A stretch of DNA of 64,000 nt, from assembly GCA_951406725.2 (NCBI GenBank), contig OX597820.1:82398001-82462000 (forward strand), in the 5' to 3' direction. The notes beneath the pieces are model-generated. The model had not been told where the DNA came from. It was given only the letters and a program-made list of their open reading frames with translations, and ran no database searches. The translations under genes were made by a program, and so were the position numbers. Origin of the DNA: Octopus vulgaris. Its lineage: Eukaryota. Shown here piece by piece: positions 11,105 to 13,895 of this stretch. How positions within the stretch are numbered: the first letter of the stretch is position 1; every line of letters starts with the position of its first letter.

Positions 11105-12714
11105 CACCACCACCACCAACACAACAACAACCACCACTGTCATAGCGTTAATTAATTTCTTTTCAGAAACTGGAGAAGTTTATTCTTATTGTATCAGTTT
11201 TAATGTTCAGTATTTAGGAGAAAGCTGGTGAAGAAAATCCATAAATCCATATCGGAGACTATCTCGTTTAGAATGCTTCAAAGCCATTATCAATCAGTGA
11301 TTTGGTAAAAATTACTGAAAATTCTGGAGAAAATATATCTCGCCAACTTATAATTGGCTAAACTACAATTATGATTTATTTCCTTGGCGCAAAGCCAATG
11401 ATTTATGGAAAAGAAGGCGGAGGTTTGGTTGGTTTAATCGTCCGTTATTATATTAACTTAGATCATCGGACGAGTAATATATTTGATTAACTTTGATATG
11501 TTTTTGGAAATTCTATCATACTGAAGACATTCTAATTTGTCTCATAAAAACGTTAATTTTTGGAGAAGCTTTTAACCCTTGGTGCAGACTATGCAAGAAA
11601 GCTAAGGTGGGCAGCCTTAGGCACAGACAATATAAGAGAGCTAAGAAAGGGGACCCCGCATCATTGCAAAACTTATATAGAAGTAACTGACAGTGAATAT
11701 TTGCAGCTCAGCAGCATCTGTTACAGTAAACCAAATTGAAAGTTTTTTTTCTATTTAAGATAATTCTCTTTCCTATGCTGCGATATATATTTAATGAGAC
11801 CCAGGGAATTAAAATTCAACGAAGAAAAGATTTGAATCAGAATCAAAACTGCTGTAACTAAACGTTGTAAACAAAATTTTCCGTGTTCCAAAGAAGTGGC
11901 TACCATCTGAAGTTTGGGTAAATTACAATAAAAAATCCCTGTTCAAGAAACCAGCAATTATCAGAGAAATTTAGATCGTGATGTAAGACAATTTCTAGAT
12001 TGAGCGCTGTGAATCAGCTGGATTCAAATATTTCTTTTTTTTTAATACTTTTTAGCACTACCATTTCACCGAAGATTAATTTTTTGGATTTAATGCTGTT
12101 ACACTCATAGAAAGAACATCTTTTAATATCCTTCCCGGACGCTTACTTTAATTTCTGTAATTAAGACACGTGATTGCAGTGAATGAGGGACAGTAGGTCG
12201 CAAATCAGATTTTTCCCCTATATAAATGCTAGACTATAAAGACAAATGGACAGCTTCTTCAAAATTTTCCTCAACAAGTAATTTCAGGAAACATAAATTG
12301 TAGTTATGATGGTCATCTACGGGAAAAAAGGCATGTTAATTCCTTATCTTTACCTTTTACTTGTTTCATTCATTAGACTGCGGCCATGCTGGGATACCAC
12401 CCTGGAGAATTGTTAGTTGAATGAATCGACCCCAATACTTACTTTTAAGCCTACTTTAAGCCTGGTAGTTATTATATCGAACTCTTTTTGCTGAACCGCT
12501 TGTCAAACGGCGGTGTCGGACAAGTACAGATACAAAGGTGCGCGTGTGCGCTCACACACACTCACACACATATGACGGGTTTCTTTTAGTTTCCGTCTAT
12601 CAGATGCACTCACAAAGCTTTGGTCAGTCTGAGGCTATAGTAGAAGACACTTGCACAAGGTGCCATGCAGTCAAACTGAACCTGGAACCATGTGGTTAGG
12701 AAGCAAGCTTCTTA

Positions 12715-12974
12715 TTTCTTTATTGCCCACAAGACGAAATACCTATTTCTTTACTGCCCACAAGGGGCTACACAGACAGGGGACAAACAAGGACAGACAA
12801 ACGGATTAAGTCGATGATATCGACCCCAGTGCGTAACTGGTACTTATTTCATCGACTCCGAAAAAATGAAAGGCAAAGTCGACCTCGGCGAAATTTGAAC
12901 TCAGAACGTAGCAGCAGACGAAATACTGCTAAGCGTTTCGCCCGGCGTGCTAACGACTCCGCCAGCTCACCACC
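12715..12974 (-). mobile_element. Meta-domain SINE (3' half of the 5S chimera)
   Basis: Full homolog of 8746-8979 with a partly duplicated CTTGTGGGCA(A/G)TAAAGAAATA tail. Confidence 0.9.
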
Positions 12975-13000
12975 TTTTTCTTTTCTTTTCTTTTCTTTTT

Positions 13001-13062
13001 AGCTTACAGCACCTAGGTTTCCCAAGCAGTCACCCATCTAAGTACTAACTAGGCTCGACGTT

Positions 13063-13093
<31 letters not shown>

Positions 13094-13119
13094 GCTTTCA
13101 ACGTGATGTGGCCGTAAGC
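13001..13119 (-). rRNA. Full-length 5S rRNA sequence (retroposed copy)
   Basis: GCTTACGGCCACATCACGTTGAAAGCAACGGTTCTCGTCCGATCACCGAAGTTAAGC...TTAGTACTTAGATGGGTGACTGCTTGGGAAACCTAGGTGCTGTAAGCT; 119 nt, helix I pairs; followed by (AAAAG)n instead of an oligo-T terminator. Confidence 0.95.
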
Positions 13120-13895
13120 AGGAAGCAAGCTTCTTACCACACACCCATGCCTGGACAAAACAAAAAGCAAATATATAAAACAGCAACAATAACATGTTCC
13201 AAATATAATAAGATGACAGGCTTTTTTTACGAGAGGAGTAAAAGTAATTGAATCAAAGTAACTACAGTCTTGGTATTTAATTCATTGAGCATGAGAAAGT
13301 AGAATGTAAAAATGGCATTTGAGGAATTTGAATTGAAGGCATAATGGGAGAATAATTGCTCTCTCCCGGTACAATTTACCAAATGTTGTATAAGTGGTCG
13401 ATTAAATAGACCTTCACCTCAATTTAATTGTAATTCTTTTATCAATACTAGAAAGATAGAAAGAGATAGCGACCGAATCAGAATTTAATATTTGGACCCT
13501 GGTGGTACGTAACTAAATACTTGTAAGGTAAAACTTTTAATCTGAAGTAAGAAAGGCGATAACATCTAAAGGTGCTCTTGCGGGTTATAACAGTTCGCAG
13601 TGAACAGGAAAAAATCTGATGTTTCAGACAAAGACAAACTTGTTTCATATCTTACGAATCTAAAATGATTGAAGTCAGAAAGCATATTTATGATTTAAAT
13701 ATATTGTAAGAATTTTCCTAGATGTTCTACCGATCTTTTAACCCCACTCGCCGTTATTCTAATAACAGCAATCCATTAATCTAATAACAGTAATCCATTC
13801 TAATAACAGTAACCCATTCATCTTAAACAGCCGTTGATATCATATATTTGCAAAAGTTTGGGCTAGCAGACCACGAATGGCTATCCTGTAGTTGA

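What the first reader, a model, noticed from the sequence alone, without database searches (positions are those of the whole stretch)
12698..13136. 5S rRNA-SINE chimera retroposed as a single unit (17-bp TSD)
On the minus strand the order is: complete 119-nt 5S rRNA (13119-13001), (AAAAG)n linker, complete tRNA/Meta-domain SINE, tail. The whole 405 bp is bracketed by one direct repeat, AGGAAGCAAGCTTCTTA (12698-12714 and 13120-13136), inside an older CORE-like SINE, and it starts exactly at 5S nucleotide 1. Known: 5S-derived SINE3s and template-switch chimeras such as U6-L1 exist in other lineages. Inference: this is either a member of a dimeric 5S+tRNA SINE family with two Pol III promoter types, or a one-off RT template switch. 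The missing oligo-T terminator after 5S would allow read-through into the SINE.
Basis: partly seen in the sequence, partly recalled or inferred. Interest (0 to 1): 0.72.

Follow-up and report, generated by a model that had tools for sequence, protein, structure and literature searches.

The report
Genome-wide 5S rRNA-retroposon chimeras
A whole 5S ribosomal RNA copy sits fused in front of a short jumping element inside one 17-base duplication; it is not a new element family but one of some 200 or more separately made fusions in this genome, where almost every stray 5S copy sampled is such a hybrid, likely because reverse transcriptases jump onto unfinished 5S RNA.

Summary
Observation confirmed: complete 5S (Rfam 107.6 bits), A/G linker and full SINE inside an exact 17-bp duplication that splits an older SINE. 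It is neither a dimeric SINE family nor a lone accident. Of 50 dispersed 5S copies taken in coordinate order, 49 are followed within about 25 nt by a repeat start, none antisense. Partners are four SINE types and several tail pieces. All 17 fusions with this SINE have different linkers. Copies lack gene upstream DNA but keep the precursor's 3' trailer with 1-7 T, often plus 1-3 extra bases; U6 and pre-tRNA are captured by the same partners. Best reading (inferred): a LINE reverse transcriptase finishes the SINE, then jumps to the 3' end of a pre-5S RNA. This copy is likely dead: an internal T6 would stop Pol III before the tail. The class is known (U6 chimeras with L2/RTE partners), but human 5S chimeras are few, mostly antisense and truncated. 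This scan noted single 5S and 5.8S chimeras on other DNA of this genome before; the 5S census is added here.

The parts
13120..13136 (-). target-site duplication, copy 5' of the insert
   Evidence: exact 17-bp repeat, not extendable
13001..13119 (-). 5S rRNA copy from nt 1, of the 'G61' 5S class absent from the C4 gene cluster
   Evidence: Rfam RF00001 107.6 bits; G61 in 0 and A61 in 126 array motifs; 6 differences from the commonest array gene, 4 from the closest listed
12977..13000 (-). A/G-rich linker (AAAAG-type repeat); likely an oligo(A) tail on trimmed 5S RNA or untemplated bases, later expanded
   Evidence: sequence; 15 of 15 A-tailed 5S copies have a partner at the end of the A run; origin inferred
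12715..12976 (-). full-length SINE with A/B-box-like motifs (12964-12954, 12902-12892) and a doubled 3' tail (12761-12746, 12730-12715)
   Evidence: boxes judged by eye
12861..12866 (-). T6 run, predicted Pol III stop before the SINE tail
   Evidence: only T run of 4 or more in the insert
12698..12714 (-). target-site duplication, copy 3' of the insert; its first bases continue the SINE tail repeat
13137..13152 (-). 5' start of the older host SINE
12574..12697 (-). rest of the older host SINE, split in its head by the insertion

Best explanation
This is a single insertion of a whole 5S copy fused to a whole SINE, likely made when a LINE reverse transcriptase primed on the SINE tail at the target, ran to the SINE's 5' end and jumped end-to-end onto the 3' end of a not yet mature 5S RNA. 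Shown: anatomy, one duplication round the whole, unique junction, and that nearly all dispersed 5S copies sampled here have the same design with freely mixed partners. Inferred: the jump itself, that the captured RNA was a precursor (U-ended or oligo(A)-tailed), that strict tail recognition makes piggy-backing the main way for 5S to be copied, and that this copy is dead on arrival.
For: 17-bp duplication round the whole unit, starting with bases that continue the SINE tail. 49 of 50 position-sampled dispersed 5S copies have a repeat start within about 25 nt (46 by score, 3 by eye), 0 antisense; control 1 of 200 positions. Array-type upstream element before 0 of 50 dispersed copies, while 127 of 128 array genes have a T4 within 20 nt and dispersed copies keep such trailers. 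T-run length 1-7 in 35 loci of one trailer class; 11 of 20 with the host-type SINE have 1-3 extra bases. Linkers distinct in 17 of 17, 25 of 25 and 28 of 30 loci by partner. Duplications of 6+ nt round the whole unit in 15 of 36 against 3.9 in shuffles. Same partners behind 15 of 17 dispersed U6 copies and behind a 113-nt tRNA with trailer. PMC4476161 section 10 and passages: L2/RTE-type LINEs give only chimeras. PMC8857657 abstract: jumping by R2 RT requires untemplated addition. PMC6789731 passages: RtcB ligation falls sharply with a 3'-OH or a 5'-triphosphate.
Against: 21 of 36 testable loci show no duplication of 6+ nt and several of the 15 positives are microsatellites; the largest partner class was not tested for duplications. 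The LINE that moves this SINE was not found among 30 RT loci. 9 of 20 junctions have no extra base, and the common extra 'AT' may belong to the SINE start. References for partners were cut from the sample itself; 5 of 49 are single-member classes whose direction is set by construction. No empty site was seen. A scan note (e1-8799442, untested here) argues for RNA ligation of U6 in this genome.
Confidence: 0.77

Rival explanations
1. The two RNAs are ligated first (RtcB or another ligase) and the fused RNA is then retroposed through the SINE tail.
For: Shown for human U6/L1 (PMC6789731 passages). Gives the same order, strand and one duplication. The short LINE-tail partners start at a sharp site, as a cut RNA would. 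Scan note e1-8799442 reports U6 joined at predicted ribozyme cuts in this genome (not tested here).
Against: Partners are often whole SINEs from nt 1, expected to carry a 5'-triphosphate (established Pol III knowledge); pre-5S is expected to end in 3'-OH (recalled); extra bases at 11 of 20 junctions; 5S, U6 and pre-tRNA share the same partners and junction style.
Confidence: 0.13
2. Two steps at this locus: a 5S copy with an A/G tail made the 17-bp duplication, and the SINE later inserted into that tail, its own 7-nt duplication hidden in its tail.
For: The last bases of the linker match 7 nt of the SINE tail; one other locus (L037) has an ambiguous linker-like match after the tail.
Against: Those 7 nt are the family's own tail motif; 0 of 15 A-tailed 5S copies stand free; 0 antisense partners in 50; the duplication starts with bases that continue the SINE tail.
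Confidence: 0.05
3. Member of a dimeric 5S+tRNA SINE family spreading from a master copy by 5S read-through.
For: 16 exact-pattern loci join 5S to this SINE; 5S was added to a tRNA SINE head once before (PMC4494074, PMC4824008 passages); PMC13282606 Table 1 lists one '5S' SINE family with 7 insertions in an octopus, undescribed in the passages seen.
Against: 17 of 17 linkers differ; nearest neighbour of a chimeric SINE half is another chimeric half in 4 of 16 (0.39 expected by chance); best pair identity 0.925-0.94; internal T6.
Confidence: 0.03
4. Assembly artefact or chance neighbours.
For: Repeat-rich region.
Against: Exact duplication; contigs of two other runs run from the flank side into the 5S (X2; X6), though with only 27 nt on the 5S side; control 1 of 200.
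Confidence: 0.02

Closest known systems
U6 chimeras with L2, RTE(X) and their SINEs (Mon-1, AnolisSINE2) in platypus and anole (Doucet et al. 2015, PMC4476161; section 10 and passages read)
   Same: Small RNA 5', retroelement 3', SINE partners, short or no duplications, almost no free-standing copies, template switching proposed.
   Different: Here 5S (plus U6 and pre-tRNA), an invertebrate, about 225-260 copies by an exact 21-mer against 40 and 16 analysed there; precursor trailers kept; many full-length from nt 1, whereas platypus U6 parts are nearly all 5'-truncated.
Human 5S/LINE-1 chimeras (Law and Burns, bioRxiv 10.1101/2025.02.02.635956; sections 3, 21, 26 part 1 and passages read)
   Same: 5S joined to a retroelement within one duplication.
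   Different: There 10.5% of 253 chimeras, often antisense and truncated (twin priming proposed); here same strand, intact 3' end with trailer, and the rule rather than the exception.
U6/L1 chimeras by RtcB ligation (Moldovan et al. 2019, PMC6789731; passages read)
   Same: Whole Pol III RNA ending in T run, same strand, unique junctions.
   Different: Needs cyclic phosphate and 5'-OH; partners there are 5'-truncated L1, here often whole SINEs with extra bases.
SINE3 and 5S+tRNA composite SINE heads (Kapitonov and Jurka 2003; Nishihara 2006, as cited in PMC4494074, PMC4824008, PMC4758252 passages; originals not read)
   Same: 5S sequence placed 5' of a tRNA-type SINE; template switch to 5S is the proposed origin.
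   Different: Those are amplified families with one shared junction; these are unamplified, independent fusions, i.e. the proposed starting step.

Membership tests
5S-headed SINE family (SINE3 / 5S+tRNA dimer) | 5S-derived head at the 5' end | tested here: met
5S-headed SINE family (SINE3 / 5S+tRNA dimer) | many copies share one junction with independent flanks | tested here: not met
   17 of 17 linkers distinct; only exact-pattern and sampled loci examined
5S-headed SINE family (SINE3 / 5S+tRNA dimer) | copies descend from a master | tested here: not met
   nearest neighbour chimeric in 4 of 16 against 0.39 expected; identity 0.83 among chimeric halves, 0.82 to 23 free copies
5S-headed SINE family (SINE3 / 5S+tRNA dimer) | no Pol III stop before the tail | tested here: not met
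   T6 at insert nt 254; sequence only
5S-headed SINE family (SINE3 / 5S+tRNA dimer) | transcribed as one Pol III RNA | not testable with these tools
   no raw RNA reads available
Small-RNA/retroelement chimeric retrocopy | small RNA 5' of a retroelement 3' part, same strand | tested here: met
Small-RNA/retroelement chimeric retrocopy | one duplication round both parts | tested here: met
   17 bp here; enriched but not general across loci
Small-RNA/retroelement chimeric retrocopy | copied from RNA: no upstream gene flank | tested here: met
   starts at nt 1; array upstream element in 0 of 50; the upstream of the G61 source gene is unknown
Small-RNA/retroelement chimeric retrocopy | unique junction, no further spread | tested here: met
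Small-RNA/retroelement chimeric retrocopy | both parts absent together from the orthologous empty site | tested here: inconclusive
   contigs break in the repeats
RtcB-ligated chimera | 2',3'-cyclic phosphate on the small RNA and 5'-OH on the partner | not testable with these tools
   RNA end chemistry not visible in DNA
RtcB-ligated chimera | partner begins at an internal cut, no added bases | tested here: not met
   SINE starts at its first base here; 11 of 20 junctions carry 1-3 extra nt; the short LINE tails would meet the first half
MetaSINE (inner SINE) / CORE-SINE (host) | conserved central domain | tested here: inconclusive
   no reference sequence obtained; 0 motif hits in 2 of 3 supplement files of PMC4824008; labels remain recalled

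The most novel reading that the evidence does not exclude
In this genome LINE reverse transcriptases capture nascent Pol III RNAs so often (3 to 5 of 30 copies of one LINE tail carry such a head) that 5S, U6 and pre-tRNA heads are constantly grafted onto every active SINE: a standing factory of proto-SINEs whose junctions record the 3' ends of precursor RNAs, including A/G-mixed tails and a 5S gene class that is lost or missing from the assembly, and which settles the jump-versus-ligation question in favour of jumping for non-L1 elements.
Probability: 0.5. Interest if true: 0.62.

Novelty: new variant of a known kind. Interest (0 to 1): 0.47.

Why it matters
Template switching onto 5S is the textbook guess for how 5S-headed SINEs arose, but it was inferred from finished families. 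Here the unamplified first step is present in hundreds of independent copies with readable junctions, so the rules (which RNA ends are caught, how many bases are added, why most are sterile) can be counted. It also gives a natural test set for jump versus ligation outside L1, and warns that automated '5S SINE' families and 5S gene counts in such genomes may be these hybrids. The single locus itself is most likely inert.

Tried and rejected
ARAGORN on the window: 0 genes. Source gene of the G61 5S class: 62 exact matches, none in a cluster (two lie 2 kb apart on C11); 71 matches to its trailer, also dispersed; I read 30 of the 71 and all were fusions; source not found. LINE sharing the inner SINE's tail: none among 30 fetched of 150 scored RVT_1 loci. 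My first guess that the short tail belongs to an RTE LINE was dropped: its ORF has RVT_1 and motifs I recall as CR1/L2-like; the clade was not fixed by any tree, and searches gave only generic RT hits. Five longer LINE stretches were fetched and used only as part of the BLAST pool. Meta-domain check failed for lack of a reference (one supplement file not searchable). Sequencing runs: no RNA holder listed; contigs could not show an empty site; generic 'skip' joints come from other host-SINE copies. The first duplication scan was too loose and was replaced, which missed L032 and L046 (seen). Rfam E-value scan was swamped by microsatellite/miRNA noise. Literature: 8 searches listed no paper on 5S chimeras in cephalopods; PMC13282606 has 0 occurrences of 'rRNA' or 'chimer' in its main text, its supplements and Repbase/Dfam entries were not seen.

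Full report
Observation. The two 17-bp repeats at 12698-12714 and 13120-13136 are identical and cannot be extended; between them lie 405 bp. On the minus strand these are a complete 5S rRNA (Rfam model 1-120, 107.6 bits), a 24-nt A/G linker and a SINE that has 7 other matches in the window. The flanks rejoin into an older SINE on the same strand, cut in its head. The labels 'Meta' and 'CORE' are recalled and were not verified. The window lies on C7 of G000, 2.8 Gb; the repeats look like octopus SINEs (recalled; scan notes say the same).

True 5S genes. A cluster on C4 holds 128 full-length copies in the 160 kb I fetched, with a shared upstream element, and 127 of 128 have four or more T within 20 nt. 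The window's 5S differs from the commonest gene at 6 of 118 sites and belongs to a 'G61' class found 0 times in the cluster against 126 for A61; 62 exact G61 matches show no cluster. Its source gene is lost or unassembled (inference).

Census. An exact 21-mer of the 5S 3' end has 375 matches, 117 in the fetched cluster, leaving 258; the density on C1-C3 (50 in 624 Mb) gives about 225. These are lower bounds; the similarity search had 1462 candidates, 40 scored. I fetched 50 of the 52 non-cluster rows listed (one skipped as already seen as L009, one not fetched; 275 matches were not listed). In 46 of 50 a repeat starts on the same strand within 25 nt by score, in 3 more by eye, and 1 has only a (TA)n run; none is antisense; 1 of 200 control positions passes the same test. 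Partners: host-type SINE 18, LINE-tail pieces 16, the window's SINE 5, a second tail 3, a third SINE 2, five single types. The partner references were cut from the sample, so the five single types match by construction; each had 8-41 BLAST hits in the pool of fetched DNA, self included.

Not a family. A pattern for 5S joined to this SINE gives 16 loci. Over all 90 distinct loci fetched, linkers are distinct in 17 of 17 for this SINE, 25 of 25 for LINE tails and 28 of 30 for the host type; chimeric SINE halves are no closer to each other (0.83) than to 23 free copies (0.82), and the nearest neighbour is chimeric in 4 of 16. The window's insert has a T6 at nt 254, so Pol III would stop before the tail and the proposed 400-nt RNA is unlikely. 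By the logic in PMC4494074 (passages), abundant free partners and unshared junctions mark independent chimeras.

What was captured. Dispersed copies lack the cluster's upstream element (0 of 50) but carry short trailers like those of genes. In 35 loci of one trailer class the T run is 1-7 long, and 11 of 20 with the host-type SINE have 1-3 further bases before the SINE start. All 15 distinct A-tailed copies, the window's included, have a partner at the end of the A run; about 6 of them have G within the run, which recalls TENT4-type mixed tails (recalled, untested; slippage could do the same). The capture is not limited to 5S. Of the first 30 of 206 U6 3'-end matches, 7 are a gene array, 6 a tandem duplication of one chimera, and 15 of the other 17 have the same partners, whole SINEs included. 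Of the first 30 of 1718 exact copies of one LINE tail, 7 run on into a LINE body, about 21 begin at one sharp site, and 3 carry a Pol III RNA head confirmed by Rfam on 20 loci scanned (full U6; a 113-nt tRNA, likely intron-containing, with trailer; another tRNA), 2 more by eye. That tail belongs to a non-LTR element with an RT ORF; clade not fixed.

One event or two. In 36 loci with a definable partner end, a duplication of 6+ nt round the whole unit occurs in 15 against 3.9 in 1000 shuffles (maximum 9), of 10+ nt in 6 against 0.8. Several are microsatellites and 21 have none; clean cases are L001 (17), L013 (11), L006 and L011 (6), and L032 (14) and L046 (about 16, one mismatch). Host-type partners were not tested. 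At the window's locus a hidden 7-nt duplication for the SINE alone is formally possible, but no free A-tailed 5S copy exists among 15 and the duplication begins with bases that continue the SINE tail, as priming would give (inference; PMC6007223 abstract and section 16 describe such a link for RTE-related elements). Contigs from runs X2 and X6 (organisms A and C) cross from the host side into the 5S with 27 nt on the 5S side, under the tool's 31-nt rule, a weak sign that the insert is real and shared.

Mechanism. Most likely a LINE RT primes on the SINE tail, reaches the SINE's 5' end, adds a few bases and jumps to the free 3' end of a pre-5S RNA, copies it to nt 1, and the insert is sealed with one duplication. 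Support from print: R2 RT needs untemplated addition to jump (PMC8857657 abstract); LINEs with strict tail recognition give only chimeric U6 copies, with SINE partners and short duplications (PMC4476161). The rival, prior RNA ligation, is proven for human U6/L1 but needs a cyclic phosphate and a 5'-OH (PMC6789731 passages), which fits poorly with whole SINEs and pre-5S; it fits the sharply cut LINE tails better and a scan note argues for it with U6 (untested). The mover of this SINE was not found.

Comparison and novelty. It works like, and passes the testable criteria of, small-RNA/retroelement chimeric retrocopies; it fails those of a SINE3 or dimer family. It differs from human 5S/L1 chimeras, which are 10.5% of 253 and often antisense and truncated. 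Eight searches listed no report for cephalopods; one octopus annotation lists a '5S' SINE family of 7 insertions without comment in the passages seen. Earlier scan notes treated two other 5S fusions in this genome as one-off accidents and counted about fifty 5.8S fusions; I saw them after forming my reading. Verdict: new variant of a known kind; the locus is ordinary and likely inert, the genome-wide pattern is the point of interest.

Noticed in passing
L143-L172 (first 30 of 1718 exact copies of a 42-nt LINE tail): About 21 of 30 begin at one sharp site at the foot of the 3' stem-loops; several related tails share that edge. A protected or cut ~55-nt RNA may be retroposed on its own.
   Followed up: partly
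L143:1549-1655, L150:1559-1671, L171:1410-1480: Full U6, a 113-nt tRNA (likely with intron) with trailer, and another tRNA fused to the same LINE tail; L153 and L161 look similar by eye.
   Followed up: partly
G000:C4:35.20-35.34 Mb (L097-L112): 5S gene cluster, 128 full copies, mixed orientations, a 507-bp tandem stretch, several sequence variants; lacks the G61 class.
   Followed up: yes
L241-L247 (C1:139.42 Mb) and L235-L240 (C1:132.4-132.5 Mb): A U6 gene array of 7 at about 1.1-kb spacing, and six tandem ~20-kb duplicates of one U6-tail chimera.
   Followed up: no
L079, L093, L096, L271: Short repeats of the 5S start (or of the junction) just upstream of the 5S copy, as from repeated jumps at the 5' join.
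   Followed up: no
window 12761-12715; L013, L018, L032, L041, L046: The inner SINE family often re-enters its own body after the tail, giving tandem bodies; the window's copy has a collapsed second unit.
   Followed up: no
L205-L227 and unlisted rows: A young non-LTR family with many intact 949-aa frames and an (ATT)n tail; not seen as a partner in the 5S sample.
   Followed up: no
L252: U6 3' end followed directly by another U6 5' part, a possible U6-U6 fusion.
   Followed up: no
window 12340-12580: A further SINE ending in the shared stem-loop tail lies just beyond the host SINE on the same strand.
   Followed up: no
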